Assembly (NCBI GenBank): GCA_041675285.1
Contig: JBAYTZ010000014.1
Span: 22,891 to 86,890, forward strand
Length of the DNA stretch: 64,000 nt
Source: Candidatus Delongbacteria bacterium
GTDB lineage: Bacteria > CAIWAD01
Direction: 5' to 3'
Shown: positions 10,654-58,545 of the stretch, in pieces
Position numbering within the stretch: the first letter of the stretch is position 1
How the letters are laid out: each line of letters starts with the position of its first letter
Notes under the pieces: model-generated
Database searches by the model: none
Told to the model about the DNA's origin: nothing
What the model saw: only the letters and a program-made list of their open reading frames with translations
Program-made: the position numbers and the translations under genes

Positions 10654-10666
10654 ATTTGGGGGAAAG

Positions 10667-11795: not shown

Positions 11796-11819
11796 TCACA
11801 AGGAACTGAAGTGACGTAA

Positions 11820-32848: not shown

Positions 32849-33562
32849 ATGAAGCCGGAACCGGGGAAAGTGGACACGGGAACCCGCGGGGGATTCGGCC
32901 GGTCCCCGCGCTGCAACCGGGAGCTGGAGGACGGCCGGCTTTGCCGCCAGCCGGTCCCGATGGCGGGCATGCGCTGCTACCTGCACCAAGCCAAGCCGGA
33001 GGACCTGGTCCCGGCGCCGGACTTGCCCGCGGGCGTGGTTGTCCCGTCCCTCTTCCAGGACCCGGCTTGGCAGTTGTCCCTGGTCGGGTTCGTGGCTGAC
33101 ATTTACCGCGACTACGCCGGGCTCAATAAAGGCGCGGACCTGCGCCAGATCCTGGCGGCCGGCGCGGCCCACGTGCGGCTGACCTACGGCATGGAGGCTC
33201 TGGAGCCGAAGGACATTGAGCTGCTGTCCAGGGTGGTGGACAGGCACCTGCGCAACCTGCGGGCGACGCCCAAGGAACAGGAGGCCGGCCGGGCCGGGAA
33301 GGACGGCAAGGGTGCCCTGGGTGCCTTGGCTGCCGGCGTCCAGGTGGGCGCCTTGCTGGAACGCGTCCGTGGGGCGCTGTCGCCGGCCCAGCGACGCGCG
33401 CTGGCCGCGGGCCGGCCCATCGCCGGCGCGGAGGTCCTGCAGGCAAACGCGCCGGCTGTGGCCCCGGACGAGGCTGAGGTCTTGGACGACGAGGACGACC
33501 TTGGCGTGCCCAGACCCATCGGCCTGGCGGGCGAGGACCTTCCGCCGGACCCGTTTGCCTGA
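32849..33562 (+). CDS. hypothetical protein with an N-terminal C/H-rich segment (ends ...PPDPFA)
   Basis: Plausible composition, whereas the overlapping minus-strand ORF is R/G/Q-rich. Start uncertain (32792 or 32849). Confidence 0.4.
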   Translation: MKPEPGKVDTGTRGGFGRSPRCNRELEDGRLCRQPVPMAGMRCYLHQAKPEDLVPAPDLPAGVVVPSLFQDPAWQLSLVGFVADIYRDYAGLNKGADLRQILAAGAAHVRLTYGMEALEPKDIELLSRVVDRHLRNLRATPKEQEAGRAGKDGKGALGALAAGVQVGALLERVRGALSPAQRRALAAGRPIAGAEVLQANAPAVAPDEAEVLDDEDDLGVPRPIGLAGEDLPPDPFA

Positions 33563-33883
33563 AAACCGCGAAAAAACGTCCAGGATCATGCCGCCCCGCC
33601 TTGGGGCGGCATTTGTGTGTCAAAGGGATCGCCCACCAGGTGCGTGCGAAAATGTCCGAGAATGGCTGTTCCCGGACGTTGGCGCGGGCATAGAGTGCGT
33701 ACATCACCTGCCGGCAGCCTGGCAAACGGGTGGGCCGGGGGGTGGTCTGGCGCAAAGCGGCAGGCCCCGCCGGGGCATCTTGGCTGTAAGGGGTGCTTTT
33801 GCGCACGCGTAGCTGGCCTATATGCAGAAGCTCCAGTGCTATACTCTTCCACCAATCTTGTTGCCTATTCAAGCAGGAAAGCT

Positions 33884-36800
33884 ATGAGCGACTCCACATC
33901 AGGGCGAAGCCTTTTCATTGTTGACAACAGCGTCTCCAACTGGACTGGAATCCGATATCTAGATGAATGGGCCGGCATCGCCAAATCCTTCGACGTGGCG
34001 ACCGGCTACTTCGAGATCGGCGCCCTTTTGGCCCTGGATGGCAAGTGGCAAGGATTGGACAAGCTGCGCATCCTCATGGGGGCGGAAACCACTCAACGCA
34101 CGCGCCAGGCGCTGCGCGAGGCGGTCACTTCGCGAGCGACGAATCGGCTGGACAACAGCCTGGAGGAGGAGAAGGATGCCAACCCTTTCCTCCGCGGCGT
34201 GCCGGCGATTCTCGATGCCCTGCGGCGCGGCCAGATTGATGTCCGGGTCTACGACAAGGACAAGTTCCACGCCAAGGCCTACATCACACACGCCAAACTG
34301 GAAGTCGTCGGTTCCCAGGCCCTGGTTGGCTCCAGCAACTTCACTCGACCAGGCCTGACCAAGAACATCGAGTTGAACATCCAGGTCCAGAGCGCGCGGG
34401 AAGTGGCGCAGCTCCAGGAGTGGTTTGAAATCCACTGGAATGACGCCCGTGAGGTGACAGACGCGGTCATTCGCATCATCGAGCGCCAAACGCAGGAGTA
34501 TGCCCCATTCGAGATCTATGCCAAGGCCCTTCAGGAGTATTTCCGCGGACATGAGCTGACGGACACTGAGTGGGAAGATGGGCAGTCGCGCATGTTTCCC
34601 GTGTTGGATCGTTACCAGAAAGAGGCCTATTGGAAGCTGCAAAAGATTGCCCATGCCCATGGTGGGGCCTTCCTCTGCGACGGGGTGGGTTTGGGTAAGA
34701 CTTTCGTGGGACTGATGCTCATTGAGCGCTTGATCCTGCACGAGGGCAAGCGGGTGGTGCTCTTCGCGCCCAAGACCGCCAAGGAAGGGGTCTGGGAGCG
34801 GGACCTGAAGCGCTATCTGCCTCACATCGGCGGCATTAGCGGCGGCGCGGATTTCAGCAATCTGGCCGTCTTCAGTCACTCGGACTTGGGACGCAAAGGA
34901 GATTTCCCCGAGCGCTTCCGGCGAATGACGGAGTTGGCCGATGTGGTGATCGTGGATGAGGCGCATCACTTTCGCAACCCCGGCACCCCAGGGGACGCGG
35001 ATGCAGAAGTGGAGCCCTCCCGCTACTTCCAGCTCTTCAACCTCCTCGACAACACGCAACGATCCAAGACGCTCTACATGCTGACGGCCACGCCCATCAA
35101 CAACAGCTTGCATGATTTCCGGCACATGGTGGAGCTGTTCTCGCGTCGCCAGGAGGATTGGTTCAAGTCCCTGGGCATCCACAACCTGCGTGCCCACGTC
35201 AACAAGCTGGAGCGGGACCTGCGCCAGCGCATGGCGAGTGCAGCTGTGGCAAAAACCCAGTCGACGGAAGTCGCCCTGGGCGAACTGACGACGGAGCTGC
35301 AGGAAGTCCTCGCCGCGGATCCGCTGATCGGTGAGTTGGTGGTCCAGCGCAGTCGCTCCTATGTGCGGGAGAGCCAGTTGCGTGAGCATGGCAAGGCGGC
35401 GGTCTTCCCCGTGCGCAGGCCCCCCCAGGTGGCGGACTACAGCATCCGCAAGAGTTACGGACGCTTGCTGGAGATCTTTGAGCTGGCCTTCCGCAAGGAA
35501 CACCCGCTGTTTTCGCTGCCCATGTACTACCCCTTGGCCTTTCCTCGGGTTGAGGATGGCAGCGTGGATCCTTTCGAGGAGAGCCGACAGAAGGAGGTGG
35601 TGGGGCTCATCCGCACCCAGTTCCTGAAGCGCTTCGAAAGCTCGGTGGCGTCCTTTGAGATTTCCTGCGACCGGCTGTTGAAGAAGCTGCTCGCTTTCCT
35701 GGAGATCCATTGCGAGACGGAGCGGGAGCGCAGGTTGCTGGAGCGCTGCCTCCTGCAGCACAAAGACGTGCTGGGCTTTGTCCATTCCCGGCAGAGCGAG
35801 ATCTGGGAGAGCGAGGCCGGTGAAGAGGGCGAGAGCGACTTGATACCACCCGAGTTCCTGGCCCGGGTGACCAAGCTGGATCGCGCCGAGTACCGCGTGG
35901 AAGACATGATCCAGGAGACCCTGCAAGATGTGAACCAGATCGCGGCCTTCTTGGAGGAAGCCAGGCATTTCCAGCCCAAGCATGACGACAAGCTGCGTCG
36001 GCTGGTGCGCCTGCTGAAGTCCAAGGAACTGGCGGGACAGAAGGTGCTGGTGTTCACCGAGTACGCCGACACGGCCCGCTACCTGAAGCGCCAATTGCGT
36101 GCGGAGGGCATTGAAGGCGTCGGTGAGGTGGACGGCGGCACGCCGGGCAGCCGCGCCCAGGTGATTGCCCGGTTCGCGCCCTATTACAACGGACACAGCT
36201 CTGCTGAGATGGAGGCGGAAGGAGGCGAGATCAGGGTGTTGATTTCCACCGACGTCCTGTCGGAAGGCCTCAACCTCCAGGACGCGTCACGGATGATCAA
36301 CTACGACATCCACTGGAACCCCGTGCGCTTGATGCAGCGCATCGGCCGTGTGGACCGCCGCTTGAATCCGGAAGTGGAGGCGCGCCTTCTGGCGGACCAT
36401 CCCGAGCTGAAGGGCTCGCGCGGCATCGTCCACTACTGGAATTTCCTCCCGCCCGATGAGCTGAACCAGTTGCTTAGTCTCTACACCATCGTCACGCGCA
36501 AGACTCTGCTGATCTCGCGGACTCTGGGCATTGAAGGCGGCAAGCTGCTTCGGCCGGAGGACATGTACGACGACCTCAAGGTCCTCAATGCCCATGACGC
36601 GGCCTACGAGGGCTCGCGCACCGTGGTCGAGGACTTGCACTTGGAATACCAGGCCTTGCTGGCTGCGATGCCGGAGCTGGAGGCGAAGTTGAAAGCGCTA
36701 CCGGGGGCTGTGTTCAGTGGCCGGGAGGCAGTGACAGCAGGTCTACGCGGCGTGTTTTTCTGCTACGCCCTGCCTGCTCTGGACCTGGAGACCGGCGAGT

Positions 36801-37054
36801 TCAGCCTGACGGCCGGCCCCACCCGCTGGTACTTGGCCGACCTGGAGCAAAACCGCATCCTGGAAGAGCCGGGCGAGATCGTCGAGCATGTGCGCAGCAC
36901 GCCGGAGACGGCGCGGCGCTGCCAAATGGATGAGGTCCTGCTAAAGGACTGGCGCGGGCGCGTCGAGAAGCACATCAAGAACACCTACCTCAAGCGCGTG
37001 GACGCTCCCATCGGCGTCAAGCCGGCTCTGCGTTGCTGGATGGAGGTCAATTGA
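33884..37054 (+). CDS. PLD-nuclease (HKD) domain fused to an SNF2-family helicase (SNF2_N + Helicase_C)
   Basis: HKD motif FHAKAYITHAKLEVVGSQALVGSSNF. Helicase motifs LCDGVGLGKTF (I), VIVDEAHHFRN (II), LISTDVLSEGLNLQD (V), QRIGRVDRR (VI). AGGAAAG RBS. Confidence 0.85.
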   Translation: MSDSTSGRSLFIVDNSVSNWTGIRYLDEWAGIAKSFDVATGYFEIGALLALDGKWQGLDKLRILMGAETTQRTRQALREAVTSRATNRLDNSLEEEKDANPFLRGVPAILDALRRGQIDVRVYDKDKFHAKAYITHAKLEVVGSQALVGSSNFTRPGLTKNIELNIQVQSAREVAQLQEWFEIHWNDAREVTDAVIRIIERQTQEYAPFEIYAKALQEYFRGHELTDTEWEDGQSRMFPVLDRYQKEAYWKLQKIAHAHGGAFLCDGVGLGKTFVGLMLIERLILHEGKRVVLFAPKTAKEGVWERDLKRYLPHIGGISGGADFSNLAVFSHSDLGRKGDFPERFRRMTELADVVIVDEAHHFRNPGTPGDADAEVEPSRYFQLFNLLDNTQRSKTLYMLTATPINNSLHDFRHMVELFSRRQEDWFKSLGIHNLRAHVNKLERDLRQRMASAAVAKTQSTEVALGELTTELQEVLAADPLIGELVVQRSRSYVRESQLREHGKAAVFPVRRPPQVADYSIRKSYGRLLEIFELAFRKEHPLFSLPMYYPLAFPRVEDGSVDPFEESRQKEVVGLIRTQFLKRFESSVASFEISCDRLLKKLLAFLEIHCETERERRLLERCLLQHKDVLGFVHSRQSEIWESEAGEEGESDLIPPEFLARVTKLDRAEYRVEDMIQETLQDVNQIAAFLEEARHFQPKHDDKLRRLVRLLKSKELAGQKVLVFTEYADTARYLKRQLRAEGIEGVGEVDGGTPGSRAQVIARFAPYYNGHSSAEMEAEGGEIRVLISTDVLSEGLNLQDASRMINYDIHWNPVRLMQRIGRVDRRLNPEVEARLLADHPELKGSRGIVHYWNFLPPDELNQLLSLYTIVTRKTLLISRTLGIEGGKLLRPEDMYDDLKVLNAHDAAYEGSRTVVEDLHLEYQALLAAMPELEAKLKALPGAVFSGREAVTAGLRGVFFCYALPALDLETGEFSLTAGPTRWYLADLEQNRILEEPGEIVEHVRSTPETARRCQMDEVLLKDWRGRVEKHIKNTYLKRVDAPIGVKPALRCWMEVN

Positions 37055-37923
37055 TGCCCCGCAAGAAGCAGGATGCCGATCCGCCGACCCTGGGTCGCGG
37101 AGGAGAGATCGTCCTGTTCCAGGAAGGTGGCGTGGGGCGTCTGGAAGTCAGGCTGCAGGGGGAGACCCTCTGGCTGAGCCTGCAGCAGCTGGCCGATCTC
37201 TATCAGCGCGACAAGTCGGTCATTTCCCGCCATCTGCGAAGCATCCTCGCCACGGGGGAGTTGGAGCGTGAGGTAGTTGTTGCAAAAAACGCAACAACTG
37301 CCGCCGACGGCAAGACCTATCAGGTGGACTTCTACAACCTGGACATGATCATCTCCGTCGGTTACCGCGTTCACTCCTTGCGCGGCACCCAATTCCGCAT
37401 CTGGGCCACCCGCACCCTGAAGGACACTTTGGTGCGCGGCTACACGTTGAACGAGAGTCGCCTGCAAGCCCAGGTGGAACGCCTGGAGGGCCTGCTGGCC
37501 GCCGTCCAATTGGTGGGGCGCGTCGCCACGGAGCGCTCCCTGAGCAGCGGCGAGGCCAAGGGCCTGCTCAAGGTCGTGGGCGACTTCTCGCTGGCGCTGG
37601 ACCTGCTGGACCAGTATGACCACGGCCGCCTCTCTCTACGAAGCACGACGGCCAGCGCGGGCCGCGTCCTGGAAGAAACCCGCAGACGCAGGCCCGCGCC
37701 CCGCTGCGCCCTGGTGCTGGGCCGGGTGGACGCCAAGCGGACGCCGGACCGCGCCGCGCCGGTTCTTGCTGGCCGGGGCCTTTGGGCTGCCCGTCCTAAC
37801 CGTCCGCCAAGACGCCCAGCTGGCCACGGCTTTGGGGGTTGGATATGTCCCGTCCGCATCCAGCCGGGGGGCGCGGAAGACCTGGAAGCCGTGGCAAAGT
37901 GGATTGATGGAGGAAAACCGTGA
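37054..37923 (+). CDS. RhuM-family (virulence protein RhuM-like) protein; C-terminal ~90 aa atypical and possibly degenerate
   Basis: LFQEGGVGRLEVRLQGETLWLSLQQLADLYQRDKSVISRHLRSI...DFYNLDMIISVGYRVHSLRGTQFRIWATRTLKD is the RhuM signature. Distal part is R/P/G-rich. Start overlaps the upstream stop. Confidence 0.65.
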   Translation: MPRKKQDADPPTLGRGGEIVLFQEGGVGRLEVRLQGETLWLSLQQLADLYQRDKSVISRHLRSILATGELEREVVVAKNATTAADGKTYQVDFYNLDMIISVGYRVHSLRGTQFRIWATRTLKDTLVRGYTLNESRLQAQVERLEGLLAAVQLVGRVATERSLSSGEAKGLLKVVGDFSLALDLLDQYDHGRLSLRSTTASAGRVLEETRRRRPAPRCALVLGRVDAKRTPDRAAPVLAGRGLWAARPNRPPRRPAGHGFGGWICPVRIQPGGAEDLEAVAKWIDGGKP

Positions 37924-39203
37924 TGGTCGACAAGGGCTTTCCAGCCGGTTACGAGCCGCAGGGGAGCACTGAGGCTGCCGAGTGGTACCGCCTAGCCGCT
38001 GAGCAAGGGAATACAATGGCCCAGCGCAATCTGGGGGTCATGTACTACAACGGCGAGGGCGTGCTGCAAGACTACACAGAGGCTGTCAAGTGGTTTCGAC
38101 TAGCGGCTGAGCAGGGGTACGCGCCGGCTCAGTATAACCTGGGGGTTGCGTGCGCCAAGGGCCTGGGCGTGCCGCAGGACTACGTTGAGGCCGTCAAGTG
38201 GTACCGCCTGGCTGCTGAACATGGGAACGCAGGAGCCCAGTTAAATCTGGGATTCTTGTACCACAGCGGCGAGGGCGTGCCGCAGAACGGCGCTGAAGCC
38301 GTCAAGTGGTACCGCCTTGCGGCGGAGCAAGGCAATGTAAGTGCCCAGAACAACCTGGGAGTCATGTACAAGAGCGGCCAGGGTGTGCCGCAGGACTACA
38401 TTGAGGCCGTTAAGTGGTACCGCCTTGCGGCGGAGCAAGGACATGTAAGTGCCCAGAACAACCTGGGGGACATGTACAGTGGCGGCCAAGGCGTGCCGCA
38501 GGACTACGCAGAGGCCGCCAAGTGGTCCCGCCTTGCCGCGGAGCAGGGGTGCGCGCCGGCACAGTACAATCTAGGGGTTGCATGCGCCAAAGGCAGGGGC
38601 GTGCCGCATAACGACGCAGAGGCAGTCATGTGGTACCGCCTAGCCGCTGCGCAGGGGTACGCACCGGCTCAGTACAACATGGGAGTCATGTACGACGACG
38701 GCCGAGGCGTGCCGCAGGACTACGTTGAGGCTGCCAAATGGTACCGCCTAGCCGCTGAGCAGGGCCATGTAAGTGCCCAGAACAACTTGGGGGGCATATA
38801 CGGCGGCGGACAAGGCGTGCCGCAGGATGACGCAGAGGCTGCCAAGTGGTTCCGCCTAGCAGCGGAGCAAGGCCATGTAGGTTCCCAGTACAACCTGGGG
38901 GTTGCGTGCCACCTCGGCCAAGGCGTGCCTCAGAACTACGCGGAAGCAGCCAAGTGGTACCGCCTAGCCGCTGAGCATGGGTACGCACCGGCTCAGTACA
39001 ACCTGGGTGTCATGTACAACGACGGCCGAGGCGTGCCGCAGGACTATATCATGGCTCACCTGTGGTGGAACCTTGCTGCCACCAGCGGGGATGAGGACGC
39101 GGTGAGGGGTAGAGGCACTGTGGCTGGCAAGATGACCCCTGCCCAAATCGCAGAGGCGCAACGTCTCGCCCGCGAGTGGAAGCCCACACCGGAGAAGCCA
39201 TGA
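37923..39203 (+). CDS. Sel1-repeat (SLR/TPR-like) protein, ~11 tandem 36-aa repeats
   Basis: Repeating AEAVKWYRLAAEQG.A.AQ.NLG.MY..G.GVPQDY units. GGAGG RBS. Stop overlaps the methyltransferase start. Confidence 0.85.
   Translation: MVDKGFPAGYEPQGSTEAAEWYRLAAEQGNTMAQRNLGVMYYNGEGVLQDYTEAVKWFRLAAEQGYAPAQYNLGVACAKGLGVPQDYVEAVKWYRLAAEHGNAGAQLNLGFLYHSGEGVPQNGAEAVKWYRLAAEQGNVSAQNNLGVMYKSGQGVPQDYIEAVKWYRLAAEQGHVSAQNNLGDMYSGGQGVPQDYAEAAKWSRLAAEQGCAPAQYNLGVACAKGRGVPHNDAEAVMWYRLAAAQGYAPAQYNMGVMYDDGRGVPQDYVEAAKWYRLAAEQGHVSAQNNLGGIYGGGQGVPQDDAEAAKWFRLAAEQGHVGSQYNLGVACHLGQGVPQNYAEAAKWYRLAAEHGYAPAQYNLGVMYNDGRGVPQDYIMAHLWWNLAATSGDEDAVRGRGTVAGKMTPAQIAEAQRLAREWKPTPEKP
37960..39110 (+). repeat. DNA-level tandem repeat (period 108 bp) encoding the Sel1 repeats
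   Basis: Recurring ...gtggtaccgcct.gc.gc.gagca.gg... units visible in the sequence. Confidence 0.6.
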
Positions 39204-42200
39204 GCAAGACCCAAGACCGGAACTGGGAGCGCCTGCGCTCCATCAAGACGATCGAGGAGCTGCTAGCCTATTTGAGGGAGGAGCTTGACTGGCCGCTCGA
39301 AGGCGCGGACGTCGAGGACGTCGCCTTCGAATACACACCCGAGGAGCTGGGCCTGGAGCCCGCCCTGGCGGTTAAGATCGATTCCATTCACCGTCTGCGT
39401 CCGCTGAGCACGCACCAACCCTGGGGCATTTTCTTCGTCGACTTCGAGCCCAAGAATCTGCCCGTCACGGCCCTGCGCCGCATCCTGGGCCGCGTGGTCT
39501 TGAAGAAGCGCGCCAAGGGCAGCGCGCAGGCCTGGCACGCAGACGACCTGCTCTTCATCTCCACCTACGGGCAAGGGCCCAGCCGCCAGATCTGCCTGGC
39601 GCACTTCTCCGCCAGCGAGGGAGCGCGCGACCTACCCACCCTCAAGGTGCTGGGCTGGGACGAGCAGGACACGGCACTGCACCTTGCCCACGCCGCCAAC
39701 ACCCTGGTCAAGCACCTCACGTGGCCGGAAAACGAGAACGACCTGGAGATCTGGCGCAAGACTTGGAGCGCAGCCTTCACGCTGGGGCATCGGGAAGTCA
39801 TCTCCACGGCCAAGGATCTCTCCATTCGGCTGGCGGCGCTGGCGAGGGCGATTCGCCTGCGCATCACCACGGCGCTGGCGATCGAGAGCGAGAGCGGCCC
39901 GCTCACGCGTCTGATGCATGCCTTCCGCGAGGCCCTGGTCCACGACCTGACGGTGGAGAGCTTCGCCGACATGTACGCCCAGACCATCGCCTACGGCCTG
40001 CTCTCGGCGCGCATCACTGATCCACACAAGAAGACTGCTGACGATTTCGCAGGTCACTTGCGCACCAACCCCTTCCTGCGGGAGCTGATGGAGACCTTCC
40101 TGAAGGTGGGTGGACGGCAAGGGAAAGCGGGCGGGTCAGGCATCGACTTCGATGAGCTGGGCGTCTTCGATGTGGTGGAGCTGCTGGACGACGCCAACAT
40201 GGAGGCCGTCGTCCGCGACTTCGGCGACAGGAACCCACAGGAAGACCCAGTCATCCATTTCTATGAGGAGTTTCTTCGGCATTACGATCCAGGTGAGAAG
40301 AAAAAGCGTGGCGTCTTCTACACGCCGCGCCCGGTGGTAAGCTACATCGTGCGCTCGGTGGACGAGCTGCTGCGAACGGAGTTCGGCCTGGAGGACGGGC
40401 TGGCCGACACCACCACGTGGGGCGAGATGCTACAGCGACAGCCCGGCCTGCAGCTGCCCAACCTCTCAGAGGACTCCGACCACCCGCGCCTGCTGGACCC
40501 GCAGCATCCCTTCGTGCAGATCCTCGACCCGGCCACGGGCACGGGCACCTTCCTCGTTGAGGTCATCGAGATCATCCACCGCACGATGACCACCAAGTGG
40601 ACGGCCCACGGTCACAGCGAGAAGCAGATCGAGGCGCTCTGGAACGCCTATGTGCCGCGCCACCTGCTGCCGCGCCTGCACGGCTACGAGCTGCTCATGG
40701 CGCCCTACGCCATCGCCCATCTCAAGATCGGCCTCAAGCTCCATGAGACGGGCTACCACTTCGACAGCGAGGAGCGGGCACGCATCTACCTGACCAACGC
40801 CCTGGAGCCGGCCAACGACAAGCAGATCACGACGGCCATGCTGCCGGCGCTGGCGCACGAAGCTCAAGCGGTCAGCATGATTAAACGTCACCAAAGGTTC
40901 TCCGTCATCATTGGTAATCCTCCATATGCAAGAGATTCCGCAAACCGCAGTGATTATGCGGAGAATCTCGTAGCAATCTACAAGGAGGACGTGAGGAATG
41001 AACGAAACATCCAACCTCTGTCTGATGACTATGTGAAATTCATCGGGATGGCTCAAGCCGTAATGTCATCATGCGGTACAGGAATTGTTGGATTCATCAC
41101 AAATCACAGCTTTATTAAGGGAGTAATTCATCGAGGGCTAAGAAGACGTGTTTGTCAGTTCTTCCAGAGGGCATACTTTTTGGACCTTCACGGCAACTCG
41201 AACATCAACGAGCAGCCGCCAAAGGACATTGAGGACGAAAACGTCTTTGACATTCGACAAGGTGTTGCAGTCTCATTGCTGACCAGAGTTTCCGCTGTTG
41301 TTGGTTATAAAGACCAAACTAAAGTTTCTGAACTCTGGGGAAAGCGGACAGAGAAATATGAATATTTACTGAAGCAAAGACATGGTGATAATGATTGGAT
41401 TCTCGTTGAACCAAAACCGCCGGAATACGAACTCATTGTAGCCGGTGATGGATCTACTCAAGTTGAATTTGATTCGTTATTCCACCTGCATGATTGGTTT
41501 CCAACTTCAGCGACTGGATTTATCACGCACCGTGACGAATTGGTGATCGATTATGATCAGTCAAACCTTATGCGAAGGATTCACGATTTAGTGGATAAAA
41601 ATATTTCTGATGAAGAGGTTATCAAGAAATATTCCTTAGAGAGCAATTCGGACTGGAATCCAATTGATGCTAGAAAACAACTTCGGGCAGTAAAGGAGTT
41701 ACAAGAAAGAGTTGTTCGTTGCACTTATCGCCCGTTTGATAGTAGATGGTGCTGGTGGGGACGAGAACTAATGGATCGCCCGCGTCAGGAGTTATTTGAG
41801 TTTTTCGTAAAACCTAACTTGACGCTGTTATGTAAACGACAGAACAAAAGGACTCCTTTCTCTTACGCATTTGTTGCCTCTGAAATAACAGAAAGTTGCA
41901 CATTTGAGAGTGCACATGCGAATAATGTTGCGTTTCCAATCTTCGTCCACACAAATGACCTGTTGTTTGGGAAGAACATCATTCATCCAAACATTGGTGA
42001 TGAAATTGTAAGTAGAGTTCGAAGACGGCTTAATTTGAATTTAGTTTCGCTTGCTATGGGTGATTTGAAGGTGACCTGCGGGCCGCGCGATTTATTGCAC
42101 TACGTATATGCAACCATTCATGCACCTAGCTACCGGACGAGATATGAGGCGTGCCTGATTAAAAGCTTCCCGCGCATTCCGTTGACATATAATCTGGACC

Positions 42201-42715
42201 TGTTCCGCGACCTCACACTTTTTGGCGGCAGGCTCGTCGCTTTGCATCTGCTGGAGTCGCCCACCCTCGACCACTTCATCACCACCTACGCCGGCCCGCC
42301 CCAACCAGAAGTCGGGCGCGTGGGCTGGTCGGATGGCACAGTCTGGTTGGATGCCGCGGCCACCAAGAAAGGGCAGCCCGCCACGCCCGGCAGAATGGGC
42401 TTCAAGGGCGTGCCCGAGGAAGTCTGGAACTTCCACATCGGCGGCTACCAGGTCTGCGAGAAGTGGCTGAAGGACCGCAAGGGGCGGCGGCTGTCGGACG
42501 AGGACATCGCCCATTACCAGAAGATTGTCGTGGCGCTGAAGGAGACGATCCGCCTGATGGGCGAGATCGACGAGGTCATTGAGAAGCATGGCGGGTGGCC
42601 GGGGGCGTTTGCCGCAGGACCGGCGGCGGGTGCGGCGGACTATCCGACCTGCGAGACGGGGCAACGCAAGGCGGCGGAAACGGGCGACCTGTTTGGGCAA
42701 AATGCGGAGTCTTGA
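39200..42715 (+). CDS. type IIG restriction-modification / PglX-like gamma-class N6-adenine DNA methyltransferase (1171 aa), GC-mosaic
   Basis: Motif X/I GVFYTPRPVVSYIV and LDPATGTGTFLVEV, motif IV VIIGNPPYARDS, long C-terminal TRD-like region. GC drops from ~65% to ~40% between ~40860 and ~42200 within the ORF. Confidence 0.85.
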   Translation: MSKTQDRNWERLRSIKTIEELLAYLREELDWPLEGADVEDVAFEYTPEELGLEPALAVKIDSIHRLRPLSTHQPWGIFFVDFEPKNLPVTALRRILGRVVLKKRAKGSAQAWHADDLLFISTYGQGPSRQICLAHFSASEGARDLPTLKVLGWDEQDTALHLAHAANTLVKHLTWPENENDLEIWRKTWSAAFTLGHREVISTAKDLSIRLAALARAIRLRITTALAIESESGPLTRLMHAFREALVHDLTVESFADMYAQTIAYGLLSARITDPHKKTADDFAGHLRTNPFLRELMETFLKVGGRQGKAGGSGIDFDELGVFDVVELLDDANMEAVVRDFGDRNPQEDPVIHFYEEFLRHYDPGEKKKRGVFYTPRPVVSYIVRSVDELLRTEFGLEDGLADTTTWGEMLQRQPGLQLPNLSEDSDHPRLLDPQHPFVQILDPATGTGTFLVEVIEIIHRTMTTKWTAHGHSEKQIEALWNAYVPRHLLPRLHGYELLMAPYAIAHLKIGLKLHETGYHFDSEERARIYLTNALEPANDKQITTAMLPALAHEAQAVSMIKRHQRFSVIIGNPPYARDSANRSDYAENLVAIYKEDVRNERNIQPLSDDYVKFIGMAQAVMSSCGTGIVGFITNHSFIKGVIHRGLRRRVCQFFQRAYFLDLHGNSNINEQPPKDIEDENVFDIRQGVAVSLLTRVSAVVGYKDQTKVSELWGKRTEKYEYLLKQRHGDNDWILVEPKPPEYELIVAGDGSTQVEFDSLFHLHDWFPTSATGFITHRDELVIDYDQSNLMRRIHDLVDKNISDEEVIKKYSLESNSDWNPIDARKQLRAVKELQERVVRCTYRPFDSRWCWWGRELMDRPRQELFEFFVKPNLTLLCKRQNKRTPFSYAFVASEITESCTFESAHANNVAFPIFVHTNDLLFGKNIIHPNIGDEIVSRVRRRLNLNLVSLAMGDLKVTCGPRDLLHYVYATIHAPSYRTRYEACLIKSFPRIPLTYNLDLFRDLTLFGGRLVALHLLESPTLDHFITTYAGPPQPEVGRVGWSDGTVWLDAAATKKGQPATPGRMGFKGVPEEVWNFHIGGYQVCEKWLKDRKGRRLSDEDIAHYQKIVVALKETIRLMGEIDEVIEKHGGWPGAFAAGPAAGAADYPTCETGQRKAAETGDLFGQNAES

Positions 42716-42750
42716 TCGCAGCTAGGTGGGCGCCAGGCCGAGAGGTGAAC

Positions 42751-43455
42751 ATGGAACCAGGTCCGATCCGTTACCGGGACTTGCCGGATGATTTCCTGCT
42801 GCGGGCGGAATTGGTTTTTCACGCCATTGAAGATGCCGGCCTGATGGAGCGAACGGATTTCCTCGTCAACTTCCAGCGCGAGATTCATCCCATGCGGGAA
42901 TTGATGCTGTGGGAGCGGCTTGCCGTGGCCTATCGGAGCCGGTGGCGCAACCGAGCGGGCTCGGTCGCGGAGCGCAAGTCGTGGTTGACCTTGCTTCTTC
43001 TGGCATCCAGTGGCGCGACGGCACATGAAGGGGATCTGACTGGGGCACTGGAGCTGGAAGAAGCGCGCTTGGCCTTTCAGGAGGCCGCCACGGCGGGTAG
43101 AAACTGCTTGTCGAGCGCCGTTGATGCGCGTGCGGTGAAACAAAGCACCCTGGCGTTGGCGGCGATTCTGAGTCGGGACATTGGTCGTGCCATTCAATTC
43201 CACTGGAACCAGATCGACCGGCTGTTGGAATCGGAAGCATGGGAACCGGATGAGGTGGAAGCTCGGCTGCGAGAACTGCATGCCACGGTGGACGAACTGG
43301 CTGATGAACGCGAAAACCTGTCAATAGAACTCAATGACCGGTCTGATGAGCTGGAAGCCATGATCCAGGGGAAGCGCGAGATACTTGAAAGGGAGCGTCG
43401 CGAGGAGCTGCTGCGGCAATCCAGTCTGGGCAATCTATTCGGCGAGGAGAACTGA
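42751..43455 (+). CDS. hypothetical coiled-coil protein (first gene of a 3-gene operon)
   Basis: GAGGTGA RBS. 234 aa. C-terminal coiled coil (ELHATVDELADERENLSIELNDRSDELEAMIQGKREILERERREE). Confidence 0.45.
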   Translation: MEPGPIRYRDLPDDFLLRAELVFHAIEDAGLMERTDFLVNFQREIHPMRELMLWERLAVAYRSRWRNRAGSVAERKSWLTLLLLASSGATAHEGDLTGALELEEARLAFQEAATAGRNCLSSAVDARAVKQSTLALAAILSRDIGRAIQFHWNQIDRLLESEAWEPDEVEARLRELHATVDELADERENLSIELNDRSDELEAMIQGKREILERERREELLRQSSLGNLFGEEN

Positions 43456-43456
43456 G

Positions 43457-44620
43457 ATGGACGTGCTGGAACTCCAACACATCGGGCAAATCCAAAAAGC
43501 CCGAATCGAGTTTGGGGATCTCACCGTTTTGGTGGGTCCTCAAGCCACTGGCAAGAGCATAACACTACAGCTACTCAAGTTGTTGGTTGACATGCGCCAC
43601 GTTCAGGAAGACCTTCGTCGTCACGGCTTGGACTGGGGCGGCAAGCTGCCTGAGTTCCTTGACCTCATGCTTGGCGAAGGCATGCACTCCATCTGGTCTG
43701 AGAAGAGCACGATTCGCTGGCAGAACCGCGATGTGGACATGGTAGCGCGCGCCAAGCGTCGCATCAAGGCGCCTGAGCTTGGGCAAGGAGAGCAGATGTT
43801 CTTCATCCCAGCGCAACGAGTATTGACTCTGCGCGACGGCTGGCCGCGCCCCTTCACTGATTACTCCGCCGGTGATCCCTTCGCAGTGCGGGAGTTCAGC
43901 GAAAAGTTGCGCCTGCTGATGGAGCAGGAATTCGTTCAGGGTGATCAGCTCTTTCCACGCGCTAATCGGTTGAAACAAATCTATCGAGACGAGTTACGTG
44001 CTCACGTGTTCGCCGGGTTTGATTTGAAGGTGGACCGTTCCCGACCACAGAAGCGTATGGTTCTAGGTAATGCACATGGCGAACTCCCGTTTATGGTTTG
44101 GTCGGCGGGGCAACGAGAATTCATGCCGCTATTGCTCGGCCTCTATTGGTTGATGCCACCCGGGAGAATGGCAAAGCGGAAGTCCGTGGATTGGGTTGTT
44201 GTAGAAGAGCTTGAAATGGGGCTCCATCCGCGAGCTATCAGCCTGATGTTACTGCTGGTGCTGGAGTTGCTCTCACGCGGCTATAGAGTCTGTTTGTCGA
44301 CACACTCACCACAAGTCTTAGAAATGGTTTGGGCCTTGAATCACTTACGTGAGCAGAATTCCAGTGAGTCAAAGTTAGGCAGATTGTTTGACGTGCAAGC
44401 TGGCACTCAATTAAAGGCTGTTTTTCATGATACAATGAAGCGAGTGTTTAAGGTCTACTATTTCGAGCGTGATGGTGCAGTACGAAACATTTCTGGGCTT
44501 GATCCAGGTTCAACAGAGTCCTTTGTTGCAGGTTGGGGAGGCCTAACGGACTTCAGTGCAAGAGCCAATGAAGTTGTGGCATCTGCCGTGGCTGATGGGC
44601 TGCGGAGGCGCAAAGCATGA
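43457..44620 (+). CDS. ABC-type (AAA_15/AAA_21-like) ATPase of the OLD/abortive-infection type
   Basis: Walker A LVGPQATGKS. Distal D-loop/Walker B block DWVVVEELEMGLHP typical of the AAA_21 family. Start 2 nt after the upstream stop. Confidence 0.7.
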   Translation: MDVLELQHIGQIQKARIEFGDLTVLVGPQATGKSITLQLLKLLVDMRHVQEDLRRHGLDWGGKLPEFLDLMLGEGMHSIWSEKSTIRWQNRDVDMVARAKRRIKAPELGQGEQMFFIPAQRVLTLRDGWPRPFTDYSAGDPFAVREFSEKLRLLMEQEFVQGDQLFPRANRLKQIYRDELRAHVFAGFDLKVDRSRPQKRMVLGNAHGELPFMVWSAGQREFMPLLLGLYWLMPPGRMAKRKSVDWVVVEELEMGLHPRAISLMLLLVLELLSRGYRVCLSTHSPQVLEMVWALNHLREQNSSESKLGRLFDVQAGTQLKAVFHDTMKRVFKVYYFERDGAVRNISGLDPGSTESFVAGWGGLTDFSARANEVVASAVADGLRRRKA

Positions 44621-45072
44621 CTTTCACACAAGCAGTTGCAGCCTCACCTGACATTGCAAGCGCATATCAGCGAGGTTTAGGAGCATTGAAGGCTGTAGAT
44701 CGTGCTCATATTACGGTCAATAAGTCCACAAAACTCAAGGGAAGTGTTGATATTGATTCAACGTTGCAATCTAAGTGCCCAACTGAACACCGTTGGGATT
44801 ATGGGATTGGTAAGTCACAGGGTGGGAAGAAGGGTGATAAAGTCATCTGGGTTGAAATCCATCCAGCAAAAGACGGTGAAATCAATACGATGATGGACAA
44901 ATTGGCCTGGTTGAAGTCTTGGCTTCAGACATCCGCTACTGACTTGGATGCATTGTCGCGTGAATTCATATGGATATCAAGCGGAAAAACTACCATCACG
45001 CAAGGTAGCCCCGCAGCGAGAAAAATGGCCTTGGCTGGGTTGAGATTAGCGGGACATCATCTTCATCTTTGA
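44617..45072 (+). CDS. hypothetical small protein (151 aa) translationally coupled to the ATPase
   Basis: 4-nt ATGA overlap with the ATPase gene. No recognisable motif. Confidence 0.45.
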   Translation: MTFTQAVAASPDIASAYQRGLGALKAVDRAHITVNKSTKLKGSVDIDSTLQSKCPTEHRWDYGIGKSQGGKKGDKVIWVEIHPAKDGEINTMMDKLAWLKSWLQTSATDLDALSREFIWISSGKTTITQGSPAARKMALAGLRLAGHHLHL

Positions 45073-45281
45073 TGAATAGTGAGTAGCAAAGCGGATCAAA
45101 CCTGACCCGCTTCGCATAAGACGCCAGCTGACCATCAGGCCTGGGATTCCAGTGGAACCAATGTTTCCAGCCGTTCTGCCACCTACTCCACACTCTCCTA
45201 TAAGGCCTGCATCCGCCCCATCACTGTGGCCATCTGCGCTTGCAGCTCTGCGTCCTGTGTAGTTGTCGTGGGGTTGTTCTT

Positions 45282-45494
45282 TCAGCGGGTTAGGTTGGAA
45301 ATGAACTCGCCGTTCTCGTCGTAGACCTTGATGATGCAACGGCCAGAGCCGATGGGGTCGGGGACAACTGTGTAGGTCCAGCCTTCGGCCTCGCCCTTGC
45401 CCAGGTCGGTCGCGGCCTTCTCGGCTTCAGCTTCGGTGAGGAATACCCAGGTCGGGGCGTTGGTGAGGAGCAGCATGTTCATGGTCCCTTTCAT
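45282..45494 (-). CDS. hypothetical small protein
   Basis: ORF track. Part of the leftward small-gene module. Confidence 0.35.
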   Translation of the reverse strand: MKGTMNMLLLTNAPTWVFLTEAEAEKAATDLGKGEAEGWTYTVVPDPIGSGRCIIKVYDENGEFISNLTR

Positions 45495-45540
45495 AGGGCC
45501 AGAGCGGGTGTTCGAGCCGGCCCTGGCGCGCCGCTTGTTG

Positions 45541-45786
45541 TCAGGCAGCCGTCTCGTTACTGACCATCTCGGCGTTTGCAGCGGCGTCCTCGATGGCCTC
45601 TGCCAGTGCGGTGACTTGGGTGGTGATGTTGGCCAAGTCGTGCCGGAAGCGCTTGTCGGCGCCTAGCTGTGCCTCGGCCTGCGCCAGCGTTGCTCGCAGC
45701 GATTCAACCTGGGCGCTGGCGGTCCCAAGCAGGAAGAGGCCGTTCTCAAGGGGCTGGGCGGTTGTTGTCATCGTCTTGCGTGCCAT
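45541..45786 (-). CDS. hypothetical small protein (Ala-rich)
   Basis: ORF track. Confidence 0.35.
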   Translation of the reverse strand: MARKTMTTTAQPLENGLFLLGTASAQVESLRATLAQAEAQLGADKRFRHDLANITTQVTALAEAIEDAAANAEMVSNETAA

Positions 45787-48750: not shown

Positions 48751-49599
48751 TCAGTTCCGCCTGCCCTCGATGGCGGCCCTAAGCTCCTCGTCGGCCACGT
48801 GGGCGTAGATGGCCGTGGTCTTGGGGCTTTCGTGGTCCAGGGCCAGTTGCACGAGGCGCAGGTTGCCCGTCTTCTTCAGCAGGCTGGTGGCAAAAGTGTG
48901 CCTCAGAACGTGTGGGTGGATTCCGCGAGAAATCCCGGCCAGGGCCACCCAGAAGTCCAGGAGCCGGCGGATGTGCCGGGTGCCGATGCCCTTCCCGGTC
49001 GTGCTGCGGAAAAGCGGAGCCTGCGCCGGCTGGCGCGCAACCAGCAGCTTCAGGATGTCCCGGGTTTCCACCGGCAGGAACCGGGTTCGCTGCTTGCCCC
49101 CCTTGGTGCTCACCCGAATCATCTTCTCGCTTAGTTCCACGTCGCCCACGGTCAGGGCGGCGGCCTCGGCCACACGCAGGCCTGTGTCCAAGAGCAGGCA
49201 GAAGAGAGCACGGTCCCTGGGCTGGCTGGTCACGTCTGAGCGTGTGCGTAGGGTTTTACGCAGCGCCTTCTCCTCGGCTTCGCTGAGGTAGTCGGGGGCG
49301 GCGGTATGAATGCGCGGCATGCGCATGGCGCCGACCTCAGCCGCCAGGGGGTGCTTGGCCCAGGTCAGGAACTGGTTGAGGACGGTCAACGCCCGTCGCT
49401 GAGTCAGGCTTGACCGCCCCTCTCGGACGAAGTACCGTGTGATCCGATCCATGGTCAGGGTTTTCAAGTCGGAGGACTGGCCATCCTCTTCCAGGGCTGT
49501 GGCCAGCCGGCGCAGTTCGGCCAAGTAGGGGACTCGCGTGCTGTAGGCCAGCTGCCTGGACTGGAGGTGCTCGTCGAAGCGCTGGAAGTGGGCGCGCAT
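48751..49599 (-). CDS. tyrosine recombinase/integrase (XerC/XerD-like, phage integrase family)
   Basis: C-terminal HVLRHTFATSLLKKTGNLRLVQLALDHESPKTTAIYAHV (H-x-x-R ... Y). N-terminal SAM-like core-binding domain. Start taken at MRAHFQRF (rc ATG 49597-49599). Confidence 0.8.
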   Translation of the reverse strand: MRAHFQRFDEHLQSRQLAYSTRVPYLAELRRLATALEEDGQSSDLKTLTMDRITRYFVREGRSSLTQRRALTVLNQFLTWAKHPLAAEVGAMRMPRIHTAAPDYLSEAEEKALRKTLRTRSDVTSQPRDRALFCLLLDTGLRVAEAAALTVGDVELSEKMIRVSTKGGKQRTRFLPVETRDILKLLVARQPAQAPLFRSTTGKGIGTRHIRRLLDFWVALAGISRGIHPHVLRHTFATSLLKKTGNLRLVQLALDHESPKTTAIYAHVADEELRAAIEGRRN

Positions 49600-49723
49600 G
49601 GGGTCTCCGTGGTTGGGTGGCGGCAAGGCGGGATCGCAAGGTCCCGCCCGCGCATGTCTCTGGACATGAGTCTGCACTAGTCGGGTCCGAAAGTCAAGTC
49701 TCAACCCATTGAGAGTAAACGAG

Positions 49724-58204: not shown

Positions 58205-58406
58205 CCGACCTGCCTTGTTTGCCTCCGCATCCACGAGCCCGTCGTCCTCAAGGTTACCCTCTTTAGGGACATACTGGAAGATCACCATGCACGCCAGGCA
58301 TTGGAGAACTTGGAGATCCAGAAAGCGCTAGAGCATCGATGACGAGTTGCAGATTCTTCTTCAGTGTAAAGAGTATTAAGTCAGAGTCTGCGCTAAATGG
58401 GTTAAA

Positions 58407-58437
58407 GTGTCAATATGATGTCAATTAGTAGTGTCAA
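58407..58437. repeat. three (G/A)TGTCAA direct repeats spaced ~one helical turn (TTGACA x3 on the minus strand) at the GC-content boundary of the low-GC island
   Basis: GTGTCAAtatgATGTCAAttagtaGTGTCAA seen directly. Confidence 0.4.
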
Positions 58438-58545
58438 CTAATTTAGTATCGGAGTTTAGTTGTCTGATATTATCACGCTTATATTTCAAGAATACACAAA
58501 TCTAGATGACTGTATGTGCAAATACGGCTGAACTTAATATTATGC

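What the first reader, a model, noticed from the sequence alone, without database searches (positions are those of the whole stretch)
40860..42200. Abrupt GC mosaicism inside the methyltransferase gene (catalytic NPPY region and TRD at ~40% GC versus ~65% flanks)
The ORF stays open and motif order is intact, but a ~1.3 kb internal segment has foreign base composition. This is the pattern expected from recombinational swapping of the C-terminal catalytic/target-recognition module. Such swapping is known to reprogram specificity in type IIG and BREX methyltransferases.
Basis: seen in the sequence. Interest (0 to 1): 0.5.

Follow-up and report, generated by a model that had tools for sequence, protein, structure and literature searches.

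The report
Swapped low-GC specificity module in methyltransferase
A restriction-modification methyltransferase gene in a GC-rich genomic island carries a 1.3-kb in-frame replacement from an AT-rich relative that covers exactly its DNA-reading part; this is a clear but expected case of how such enzymes acquire new target sequences.

Summary
Inside the methyltransferase ORF (ATG 39200 to 42715), third-codon-position GC (GC3) is 0.42 between nt ~40859 and ~42193 and 0.86 outside (log-likelihood ratio 126). The left edge is sharp, within 10 codons.

The gene encodes the methyltransferase plus target-recognition subunit of a two-gene Type ISP-like restriction-modification system. Its partner, a PLD-nuclease/SNF2-helicase gene, lies directly upstream in 78 of 80 relatives.

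In 59 full-length relatives from many phyla:
- The same segment (aa ~562-1006) is hypervariable.
- Its pairwise similarities are uncorrelated with those of the N-terminal flank (Mantel r=0.10, not significant). The N- and C-terminal flanks co-vary with each other, and the two halves of the module co-vary with each other.
- Its GC3 is lower than that of the flanks in 57 of 59. The window is the most extreme case.

The module contains NPPY and the positions homologous to all six target-reading loops of LlaGI/LlaBIII. That published Type ISP pair shows the same mosaic layout. The module keeps 46 of 49 family-conserved residues and is modelled with high confidence.

No donor was found: the best match is 39% identical. 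No silent cassette is present. A second, independent assembly has the identical sequence across both junctions.

Verdict: a new member of a known kind, of moderate interest.

The parts
33617..37054 (+). Partner subunit gene encoding a PLD(HKD)-nuclease plus SNF2/SF2 helicase (1145 aa)
   Evidence: Pfam matches PLDc_2, ResIII, SNF2-rel_dom and Helicase_C. PADLOC matches 'HKD+Snf2' at 2e-59. A homologue lies directly upstream of the methyltransferase in 78 of 80 related loci at 55-70% identity.
37033..37923 (+). RhuM-family passenger gene inserted between the two system genes
   Evidence: Pfam Virulence_RhuM at 1e-22. It is absent from most relatives, where the two genes abut.
37920..39203 (+). 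Sel1-repeat passenger gene whose stop overlaps the methyltransferase start (ATGA)
   Evidence: Pfam Sel1, 10 repeats. The sequence at 39200-39203 is ATGA.
39200..42715 (+). Methyltransferase plus target-recognition subunit gene (1171 aa from the ATG; the ORF is open from GTG 39176)
   Evidence: Pfam N6_Mtase, Eco57I, MmeI_Mtase, and Type_ISP_C at 1.9e-75. PDB sequence matches to DrdV, LlaBIII and LlaGI. Fold matches at E=2e-38 to 5e-36. NCBI record MFA7331977.1 is named 'type ISP restriction/modification enzyme'.
39200..40858 (+). Native GC-rich 5' part: a conserved N-terminal region (aa ~1-340) and the AdoMet-binding half of the methyltransferase fold (motifs X, I-III)
   Evidence: GC3 is 0.87. 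It is 66-72% identical to relatives across phyla. Mean pairwise identity within the family is 0.74.
40853..40882 (+). Left junction: the support interval of the GC3 change-point, inside the conserved block LAHEAxAVxxIKR, 12-20 codons upstream of NPPY
   Evidence: Conserved positions E562, A563, A565, V566 and K570. In the model it falls in the helix preceding the NPPY strand.
40859..42193 (+). Low-GC specificity module (aa 562-1006): the catalytic half of the methyltransferase fold (NPPY onward) and most of the target-recognition domain
   Evidence: GC3 is 0.42 and GC is 0.431. The best match to any of 1.84 billion representative proteins is 39% identical. It retains 46 of 49 family-conserved residues. 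Its amino-acid composition is shifted towards residues with AT-rich codons.
40916..40927 (+). Catalytic motif IV (NPPY), written with AT-rich codons (AAT CCT CCA TAT)
42125..42226 (+). Right junction: the support interval of the GC3 change-point, inside the conserved block HYVYAxxHxPxYRxxYxxxLxxxFPRIP
   Evidence: The same block aligns in DrdV, LlaBIII and LlaGI. Conserved positions Y978, Y986, R987, L994, P999 and P1002.
42194..42715 (+). Native GC-rich 3' part (the last ~170 aa, including the conserved GGYQVCEKWLKDRKGR region)
   Evidence: GC3 is 0.85. All 37 family-conserved positions are kept. Its similarities co-vary with those of the N-terminal part (Mantel r=0.415, p=0.0005).

Best explanation
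The gene encodes the methyltransferase-plus-target-recognition subunit of a two-gene, Type ISP-like, ATP-dependent restriction-modification system. Its partner is the PLD-nuclease/SNF2-helicase encoded at 33617-37054.

Codons ~562-1006 were replaced by the corresponding part of a very divergent allele from an AT-rich genome (roughly 40-45% GC). The replacement most likely occurred by homologous recombination, with one crossover in each of two conserved blocks. The left block is LAHEAxAVxxIKR, just upstream of NPPY. The right block is HYVYA...FPRIP.

The replaced piece is the whole DNA-reading unit: the catalytic half of the methyltransferase fold plus the target-recognition domain. One subunit is expected to direct both methylation and restriction. 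The swap should therefore give the whole system a new target sequence in a single step.

Shown here: the compositional step and its edges; the colinear, intact, confidently folded protein; the family-wide decoupling of this module from its flanks; and the conserved gene pair.

Inferred: the enzymatic activities, the change of specificity, the direction and timing of the transfer, and the role of the conserved N- and C-terminal parts in docking the helicase-nuclease.
For: - Composition. GC3 is 0.42 inside and 0.86 outside, with a log-likelihood ratio of 125.8 and a left edge within 10 codons. GC1 and GC2 also drop. The module's amino-acid composition is shifted towards residues with AT-rich codons (GARP z=-1.8, FYMINK z=+1.4), while its N-terminal part is not.
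- Replacement, not insertion. The module aligns colinearly with homologues, keeps 46 of 49 positions that are at least 90% conserved, and is modelled with pLDDT mostly above 85 across both junctions.
- Module shuffling across the family. Mean pairwise identity is 0.74 for the N-terminal part and 0.32-0.42 for the module. Mantel tests give r=0.105 (p=0.11) for N-terminal part against module, r=0.415 (p=0.0005) for N- against C-terminal part, and r=0.735 (p=0.0005) for the two module halves. For example, L056 and L064 are 0.93 identical in the N-terminal part but 0.31 in the module, whereas L001 and L053 are 0.75 and 0.72-0.78. In pairs with at least 85% N-terminal identity, the left identity breakpoint has its median at aa 586.
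- The GC dip recurs at the same borders. In 57 of 59 relatives, module GC3 is below that of the flanks (mean -0.13); the window is the extreme at -0.44. The mean GC3 profile of 39 GC-rich relatives steps 0.85, 0.65, 0.80, independently of column conservation. Module GC is below the local background in 89% of 53 loci (Wilcoxon p=3e-8), whereas the N-terminal part and the helicase match the background.
- Function of the module. In LlaGI/LlaBIII, target-reading loops I-III lie after NPPY in the methyltransferase domain and loops IV-VI lie in the target-recognition domain (PMC4872093). The homologous positions all fall between NPPY and the HYVYA...FPRIP block.
- Precedent. LlaGI and LlaBIII are more than 95% identical through the AdoMet-binding part, less than 50% identical in the catalysis and target-recognition part, and similar again over the last ~100 aa. 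They recognise different sites (PMC3553950).
- System. The helicase-nuclease gene is directly upstream in 78 of 80 loci.
- Not an assembly artefact. A separate Logan assembly is 100% identical over window 36299-45715.
Against: - No donor or near relative of the module exists in the databases searched. The best match is 39-40% identical, so the AT-rich origin rests on composition alone.
- No relative shares near-identical flanks. The best N-terminal identity is 72%, so the crossover points cannot be mapped by DNA identity.
- The sequence comes from a metagenome assembly, and reads were not inspected.
- The modest GC dip across the family could partly have a non-transfer cause, such as less GC-biased gene conversion in a segment too divergent to recombine internally.
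- No methylation or restriction data exist for this family, as far as the literature searches showed.
Confidence: 0.8

Rival explanations
1. Chimeric metagenome assembly. The contig jumps from the GC-rich organism's gene into a homologous gene of an AT-rich organism in the same sample, then jumps back.
For: The window comes from a MEGAHIT k141 metagenome contig assigned to a metagenome-assembled genome. Both junctions lie in conserved protein blocks, which is where homologues are most alike.
Against: A separate assembly (Logan, SRR6484325) gives 100% identical sequence over 9.4 kb, including both junctions. A graph chimera needs long exact matches at two places between genes whose GC3 differs by 0.44. 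The reading frame and colinearity are kept at both ends. The same kind of dip occurs in relatives on chromosome-scale records, for example L012 and L031.
Confidence: 0.04
2. No import. The module diverged in place under diversifying selection, and its GC decayed locally. One possible cause is that a hypervariable segment escapes GC-biased gene conversion, or is under weaker selection on codon choice.
For: The module has lower GC3 in 57 of 59 relatives, in hosts of many GC contents. Module GC still tracks host GC (slope 0.45, r=0.5).
Against: Within each region, GC3 does not depend on how conserved a column is. In the N-terminal part it is 0.81 at variable columns and 0.86 at conserved ones; in the module it is 0.65 and 0.67. 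The variable bin at aa 421-440 of the N-terminal part keeps GC3 at 0.82. Module similarity is uncorrelated with flank similarity, and nearest neighbours agree in only 8 of 60 genes. Clock-like divergence in place does not predict this. In the window the step is 0.44 within ~10 codons.
Confidence: 0.08
3. Programmed switching. The module would be one of several cassettes exchanged by a site-specific recombinase (a shufflon or phase-variable system) or rewritten by a diversity-generating retroelement.
For: Such switching is common in Type I hsdS genes (literature listed). A tyrosine recombinase gene lies 6 kb downstream at 48751-49752.
Against: No second copy or partial copy of the module exists anywhere in the 64-kb window, at either protein or DNA level. 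There are also no long repeats between the module and the rest of the window. A resident cassette would be expected to have host-like composition.
Confidence: 0.02
4. Same mosaic, different history. The recombination happened in an earlier host of the mobile island, or the GC-rich flanks (with the helicase gene) were the incoming DNA and overwrote the ends of an AT-rich resident gene.
For: The system sits in an integrase-bearing island with several other AT-rich patches. The whole two-gene unit is 60-70% identical across phyla, which implies frequent transfer.
Against: The flanks, the helicase gene and the surrounding island all share ~0.62-0.66 GC, and the adjacent core-like genes are at 0.70-0.75. 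The module is therefore the odd part in its present setting. The un-ameliorated GC3 of 0.42 argues against a long residence in any GC-rich host.
Confidence: 0.06

Closest known systems
Type ISP restriction-modification enzymes LlaGI and LlaBIII (Lactococcus lactis plasmids)
   Same: The methyltransferase and target-recognition unit is homologous: Pfam Type_ISP_C at 1.9e-75, PDB sequence matches at E=1e-24 to 1e-22, and fold matches at E=2e-37 and 5e-36. The mosaic layout is the same: conserved through the AdoMet-binding part, divergent from the methyl-transfer part through the target-recognition domain, and conserved again at the C-terminal end. In that pair the layout goes with different recognition sites (PMC3553950). 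[quoted passage not shown]
   Different: Here the nuclease and helicase are on a separate polypeptide. The nuclease is of the PLD/HKD type rather than Mrr, and the motor is SNF2-like. The methyltransferase subunit has its own conserved ~340-aa N-terminal region. The swapped module carries a foreign base composition; I did not find this reported for LlaGI/LlaBIII in the passages I read.
DrdV, a Type IIL single-chain restriction-modification enzyme (PDB 7LO5)
   Same: It is the best sequence match (E=4e-31) and the best fold match (E=2e-38) over the methyltransferase and target-recognition unit. This includes the NPPY region and the HYVYA...FPRIP block.
   Different: DrdV is a single chain of about 1029 aa and needs no helicase partner. 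Sequence identity is only ~20%.
BREX PglX/BrxX and MmeI-family (Type IIG/IIL) methyltransferase-recognition modules
   Same: They belong to the same broad fold class (E=1e-14 for PglX and 1e-12 for MmeI). They share the general principle that the recognition module sets specificity for the whole system.
   Different: They are much more distant. The PADLOC PglX match is weak and partial at 1.2e-5. No BREX partner genes are nearby.
Hypervariable recognition regions with flanking recombination breakpoints in Type III mod genes (Haemophilus/Neisseria) and Type I hsdS genes
   Same: They have a conserved-variable-conserved gene layout, with allele exchange and breakpoints next to the variable region (PMC1557822; titles).
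   Different: They belong to different enzyme families. Many of those systems also use repeats or resident cassettes for programmed switching, which are absent here.

Membership tests
Type ISP restriction-modification enzymes | Nuclease, helicase, methyltransferase and recognition domains in a single polypeptide | tested here: not met
   The nuclease-helicase (33617-37054) and the methyltransferase-recognition protein (39200-42715) are separate genes, both here and in 78 of 80 relatives.
Type ISP restriction-modification enzymes | Mrr-family nuclease domain | tested here: not met
   The partner carries a PLD/HKD domain (PLDc_2 at 1e-11; RE_NgoFVII PLD domain at 1e-5). No Mrr domain was found.
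Type ISP restriction-modification enzymes | Gamma-class N6-adenine methyltransferase (NPPY) followed by the Type ISP C-terminal specificity domain | tested here: met
   NPPY at aa 581. Type_ISP_C covers aa 774-1129 at 1.9e-75. Fold matches to LlaBIII and LlaGI at E~1e-37.
Type ISP restriction-modification enzymes | ATP-dependent translocation with cleavage on collision, and protection by single-strand methylation | not testable with these tools
   This needs biochemistry. Only the presence of an SF2/SNF2 motor and a nuclease domain in the partner is shown.
Type IIL/IIG single-chain enzymes (DrdV, MmeI) | N-terminal nuclease fused to the methyltransferase-recognition unit, with no helicase partner | tested here: not met
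   No nuclease family matches aa 1-340. A helicase-nuclease partner gene is conserved upstream. The PADLOC label 'REase_MTase_IIG' (1e-181) covers the methyltransferase-recognition part only.
BREX (PglX) | PglX together with BrxA/B/C, PglZ and BrxL or another BREX gene set | tested here: not met
   None of these families appears among the neighbouring genes. The PglX model match is partial at E=1.2e-5.
DISARM class 1 | DrmA and DrmB together with DrmD, DrmMI and DrmC | tested here: not met
   The partner scores 143.9 bits against the DrmD model (cut-off 610) and 25.9 bits against DrmC (cut-off 133). No DrmA or DrmB is nearby.
Mosaic specificity-module exchange (allelic replacement of the recognition module) | A variable module bounded by conserved blocks, with a history independent of its flanks | tested here: met
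   Composition step at the same borders.
Mosaic specificity-module exchange (allelic replacement of the recognition module) | An identified donor allele or an un-swapped parental allele | tested here: not met
   The best module match is 39% identical among 1.84 billion representatives. The best flank match is 72% identical. The protein is a singleton 90%-identity cluster.
Programmed cassette switching (shufflon, phase variation or diversity-generating retroelement) | Resident silent cassettes or a template repeat, with inverted or direct repeats | tested here: not met
   tblastn and blastn of the module against the whole window find only the module itself.

The most novel reading that the evidence does not exclude
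The PLD-SNF2 plus methyltransferase-recognition gene pair is a widely transferred, experimentally uncharacterised two-subunit relative of Type ISP systems. It is built around a portable specificity cassette (aa ~562-1006) with conserved recombination 'handles'. On this reading, cassettes move between lineages, possibly also to and from a sister family with a shorter N-terminus. They move so often that they rarely equilibrate with host composition. A within-gene GC step would then be a general, datable marker of recent specificity switches in this family.
Probability: 0.3. Interest if true: 0.55.

Novelty: new member of a known kind. Interest (0 to 1): 0.4.

Why it matters
The gene is an unusually clean natural example of a specificity module exchanged as one unit in a Type ISP-like enzyme. 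The borders are visible directly in base composition.

The borders bracket NPPY and the positions homologous to all known target-reading loops. They therefore mark where chimeras could be built to re-target this enzyme class.

The family survey adds two further points:
- The two-gene PLD-SNF2 plus methyltransferase-recognition system is common across phyla and appears to be unstudied experimentally.
- Its specificity module is systematically more AT-rich than its flanks. This offers a simple way to look for recent specificity switches.

None of this overturns current understanding of restriction-modification evolution.

Tried and rejected
- Silent cassettes or repeats. I searched the window for a second copy of the module with tblastn and with blastn (word size 9). 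Only the module itself was found.
- Donor search. A word-indexed search of 5.8 billion proteins gave a best hit of 40% identity. An exhaustive phmmer search of 1.84 billion representatives gave 39%. I fetched the contexts of two of the better hits. They sit in hosts of 48% and 65% GC, which is uninformative at this distance.
- Sister-family origin. The module scores slightly higher against proteins of a sister family with a shorter N-terminus (best 255 bits) than against its own family (best 210 bits). The samples were chosen differently and identities are all 33-39%, so I draw no conclusion.
- Plasmid collection. A megablast search of 38800-43000 found nothing.
- Exact look-up of the protein. 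The look-up from GTG 39176 failed. It succeeded from ATG 39200.
- Structure prediction. I repeated it with proteins from the homologue searches.
- Literature. A search for PF18135/Type_ISP_C returned nothing. MANTIS/Gao_RL and the BREX-related systems I looked at are different gene sets.
- Relaxed constraint at variable sites. I rejected this as the cause of the GC dip because GC3 does not depend on column conservation within either region.
- tRNA scan. No tRNA was found that would mark the island's attachment site.
Full report
**1. The observation**

The ORF 39176..42715 (+) is open for 1179 codons. In 200-nt windows, GC falls from 0.62-0.68 to 0.39-0.47 between ~40900 and ~42150, then returns to ~0.66.

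The drop is mainly at synonymous sites. GC3 is ~0.9 before codon ~555, mostly 0.2-0.6 inside the segment, and 0.8-0.97 after codon ~1010. GC1 and GC2 fall less.

A two-change-point likelihood fit on GC3 gives these values:
- The low block spans codons 562-1006 (nt 40859-42193).
- GC3 is 0.42 inside and 0.86 outside, with a log-likelihood ratio of 125.8.
- The left edge lies within codons 560-569.
- The right edge is broader, at codons 984-1017.

NPPY is at aa 581 and is written AAT CCT CCA TAT.

The likely true start is ATG 39200. It overlaps the stop of the upstream gene as ATGA, and GGAG lies 6 nt upstream. Relatives align from about aa 18-20 of the long ORF.

**2. What the gene is**

The protein matches these Pfam families:

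| Family | Residues | E-value |
|---|---|---|
| N6_Mtase | 357-397 | 5.8e-10 |
| Eco57I | 559-658 | 1.2e-08 |
| MmeI_Mtase | 447-650 | 8.4e-07 |
| Type_ISP_C | 774-1129 | 1.9e-75 |

The closest solved structures by sequence are DrdV (Type IIL, E=4e-31), LlaBIII and LlaGI (both Type ISP).

An AlphaFold2 model has mean pLDDT 80, with the methyltransferase-recognition part mostly above 85. It matches the same three structures at E=2e-38 to 5e-36. BREX PglX (1e-14) and MmeI (1e-12) are far behind. NCBI names the protein 'type ISP restriction/modification enzyme' (MFA7331977.1).

Upstream, 33617..37054 encodes a PLD/HKD nuclease fused to an SNF2-type helicase. A homologue of it lies directly upstream of the methyltransferase gene in 78 of 80 related loci, usually abutting it. 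The other two loci lacked a helicase match; one of them has almost no upstream sequence.

In the window, a RhuM gene and a Sel1-repeat gene are inserted between the two, and all four genes overlap end to start.

The unit is therefore a two-subunit relative of Type ISP systems. It fails the defining 'single polypeptide' and 'Mrr nuclease' features. It also lacks the partner genes of BREX and DISARM.

**3. Where it sits**

The window is part of a 104-kb metagenome contig, ENA ERZ27247358 k141_1917367, labelled Candidatus Delongbacteria bacterium by the depositor.

Genes at 388-4710 are LPS glycosyltransferases at 0.70-0.75 GC. An integrase follows at 5184, and the rest looks like a mobile island at ~0.65 GC with several AT-rich patches.

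**4. Is the mosaic real?**

A separate assembly, a Logan contig of run SRR6484325, is 100% identical to window 36299-45715, which includes both junctions.

The module is colinear with homologues and keeps 46 of the 49 positions that are at least 90% conserved in the family. The three changes are T to S, S to A and D to S. The model is confident across both junctions. A chimeric assembly is unlikely but was not excluded with reads.

**5. Family evidence**

A scan of one genome per species, using an alignment of the N-terminal 565 aa, returned 80 loci from many bacterial phyla and one archaeal metagenome-assembled genome. These include Acidobacteriota, Myxococcota, Planctomycetota, Chloroflexota, Spirochaetia and Proteobacteria. 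All are 60-72% identical to the window in that part. I aligned 59 complete genes with the window's gene.

(a) Conservation among the relatives themselves is ~0.75 over aa 40-560. It falls to 0.2-0.5 over aa 600-960 and returns to 0.7 at aa 1081-1120. The segment is therefore hypervariable in every member, not only here.

(b) Pairwise identities show that the module's history is decoupled from that of its flanks:

| Comparison | Mantel r | p |
|---|---|---|
| N-terminal part vs module | 0.105 | 0.11 |
| N-terminal vs C-terminal part | 0.415 | 0.0005 |
| Two halves of the module | 0.735 | 0.0005 |

Nearest neighbours agree between the N-terminal part and the module in 8 of 60 genes. The 60 modules fall into 32 types at 55% identity. 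For example, L056 and L064 are 0.93 identical in the N-terminal part but 0.31 in the module. L001 and L053 are 0.75 and 0.72-0.78.

(c) In pairs whose N-terminal parts are at least 85% identical, the point where identity collapses has its median at aa 586, just after NPPY. A few pairs have other breakpoints near aa 703, 770 and 880, which points to occasional exchange of the recognition domain alone or of parts of it.

(d) The GC dip recurs. Module GC3 is below that of the flanks in 57 of 59 relatives (mean -0.13, minimum -0.32). The window is the extreme at -0.44.
- Change-points in the relatives with strong signals map mostly to aa ~530-590 on the left and ~966-1100 on the right.
- The mean profile of 39 GC-rich relatives is a step of 0.85, 0.65, 0.80. 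GC3 within each region does not depend on how conserved a column is.
- Relative to DNA outside the operon, the N-terminal part (+0.008) and the helicase gene (-0.006) match the background.
- The module is lower in 89% of 53 loci (mean -0.053, Wilcoxon p=3e-8).

**6. Why these borders**

In LlaGI/LlaBIII, three target-reading loops lie in the methyltransferase domain after the catalytic NPPY. Three more loops and a helix lie in the recognition domain. [quoted passage not shown]

In the HMMER alignments, NPPY and the block HYVYA...FPRIP align between the window's protein, DrdV, LlaBIII and LlaGI. The homologous positions of all six loops fall between them. That mapping is approximate in the recognition domain.

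The low-GC block therefore brackets the complete DNA-reading unit. The AdoMet-binding half, the N-terminal ~340 aa and the last ~170 aa remain native. Both GC junctions fall in short blocks with several nearly invariant residues, where divergent alleles are most alike.

LlaGI and LlaBIII have the same layout. They are more than 95% identical through the AdoMet-binding part, less than 50% identical in the catalysis and recognition part, and similar again over the last ~100 aa. They recognise different sites (PMC3553950). Type III mod genes show a comparable layout with breakpoints next to the variable region (PMC1557822).

**7. Origin of the module**

The best match is 40% identical among 5.8 billion proteins and 39% among 1.84 billion cluster representatives read exhaustively. 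The whole protein is a singleton cluster at 90% identity. The donor is unknown.

The module's amino-acid composition leans towards residues with AT-rich codons (GARP 0.227 against a family mean of 0.282; FYMINK 0.276 against 0.241). The N-terminal part of the same protein does not lean that way. This fits long residence of the module in an AT-rich genome.

AT-rich members of the family exist, for example L036, L044, L063 and L081 at 0.40-0.48 GC. A slight preference of the module for a sister family with a shorter N-terminus is not interpretable.

**8. Mechanism proposed**

The most likely history is allelic replacement by homologous recombination, with crossovers in the two conserved blocks. 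It was recent enough that the imported DNA has not drifted towards host composition.

By analogy with Type ISP enzymes, the methyltransferase-recognition subunit reads an asymmetric site, methylates one adenine, and directs the helicase-nuclease partner. Replacing the reading unit should therefore change methylation and restriction specificity together. These functional steps are inferred from homology, not shown.

The strong conservation across phyla of the helicase-nuclease (~55-70%), the N-terminal part (~74% among relatives) and the C-terminal end suggests they form the constant interface between the two subunits. This is also an inference.

**9. Rivals**

- An assembly chimera is made unlikely by the second assembly and by the need for two long exact matches between genes of very different GC3.
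- In-situ divergence with local GC decay cannot be excluded as a contributor to the modest family-wide dip. It does not fit the lack of correlation between module and flank similarity, the independence of GC3 from site conservation, or the 0.44 step within ~10 codons in the window.
- Programmed cassette switching is rejected for this locus because no second copy exists in the 64 kb.
- The event may have occurred in an earlier host of the island. That changes the history, not the nature of the mosaic.

**10. Verdict**

The swapped unit excludes the last ~170 aa. The closest relatives are Type ISP enzymes and DrdV rather than BREX PglX. The specificity change is inferred.

This is a new member of a known kind. 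Two things go somewhat beyond the expected: the recurrent, same-bordered GC dip across a pan-phylum, apparently uncharacterised two-gene family, and the extreme size of the step here.

Noticed in passing
window 37033-39203; L008, L028, L033, L051, L059, L076 between the helicase and methyltransferase genes: The slot between the helicase-nuclease gene and the methyltransferase gene is a recurrent insertion point for unrelated passenger genes. The window has RhuM plus a Sel1-repeat protein. Relatives have Fic, a RhuM-Fic fusion, Hsp70-TPR with a UvrD-like helicase, DUF932, and a Sacsin/NOV_C protein.
   Followed up: partly
window 33617-33980: The first ~120 codons of the helicase-nuclease gene have lower GC3 (0.63 and 0.47, against ~0.82 for the rest). 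They are not conserved in relatives, whose matches start at about aa 85-90. This may be a second small variable or imported piece.
   Followed up: no
window 43385-45072: A candidate two-gene defence system (PADLOC PDC-M56A, an AAA_21 ATPase, plus PDC-M56B) lies just downstream. It is also compositionally graded: GC3 falls from ~0.7 to 0.30 along the first gene and is 0.41 in the second.
   Followed up: no
window 6500-13000 and 58000-62500: There are two larger AT-rich islands (0.41-0.50 GC) in a ~0.65 GC background. The first has five ORFs, of which only one is recognisable (DUF5677). The second has a 767-aa DEAD-box helicase and unassigned ORFs.
   Followed up: no
L004, L008, L021, L047, L065, L077, L079, L080: In several relatives the methyltransferase reading frame is interrupted, by a stop or a frame change in or after the variable module. 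This fits the many sub-1000-aa hits in the protein searches. I did not examine whether these are decayed genes, sequencing errors or on/off switches.
   Followed up: no
window 41365-41926: Three of the seven sigma-70-like promoter matches in 33000-45500 fall inside the 1.3-kb AT-rich module, on both strands. This is what AT-rich DNA gives by composition, but such DNA can create internal promoters in GC-rich hosts.
   Followed up: no
window 33588-33612: A strong terminator-like hairpin (11 pairs, 8 of them G-C, followed by a T-rich tail) lies immediately upstream of the helicase-nuclease start. It suggests the four-gene unit 33617-42715 begins its own transcript here.
   Followed up: no
window 42716-43384: The 286-codon ORF 42595-43455 overlaps the 3' end of the methyltransferase gene. 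It has no family match and only GC3 0.67. The gene caller of the public record instead places a 234-aa gene there (L083 6453-7157). Its status is unclear.
   Followed up: no
whole window: The depositor's label is Candidatus Delongbacteria bacterium. One named member of that group has '40' in its name (GWF2_40_14), which may denote 40% GC. The contig is 65-75% GC, so the taxonomic assignment or the binning of this contig may deserve a check.
   Followed up: no
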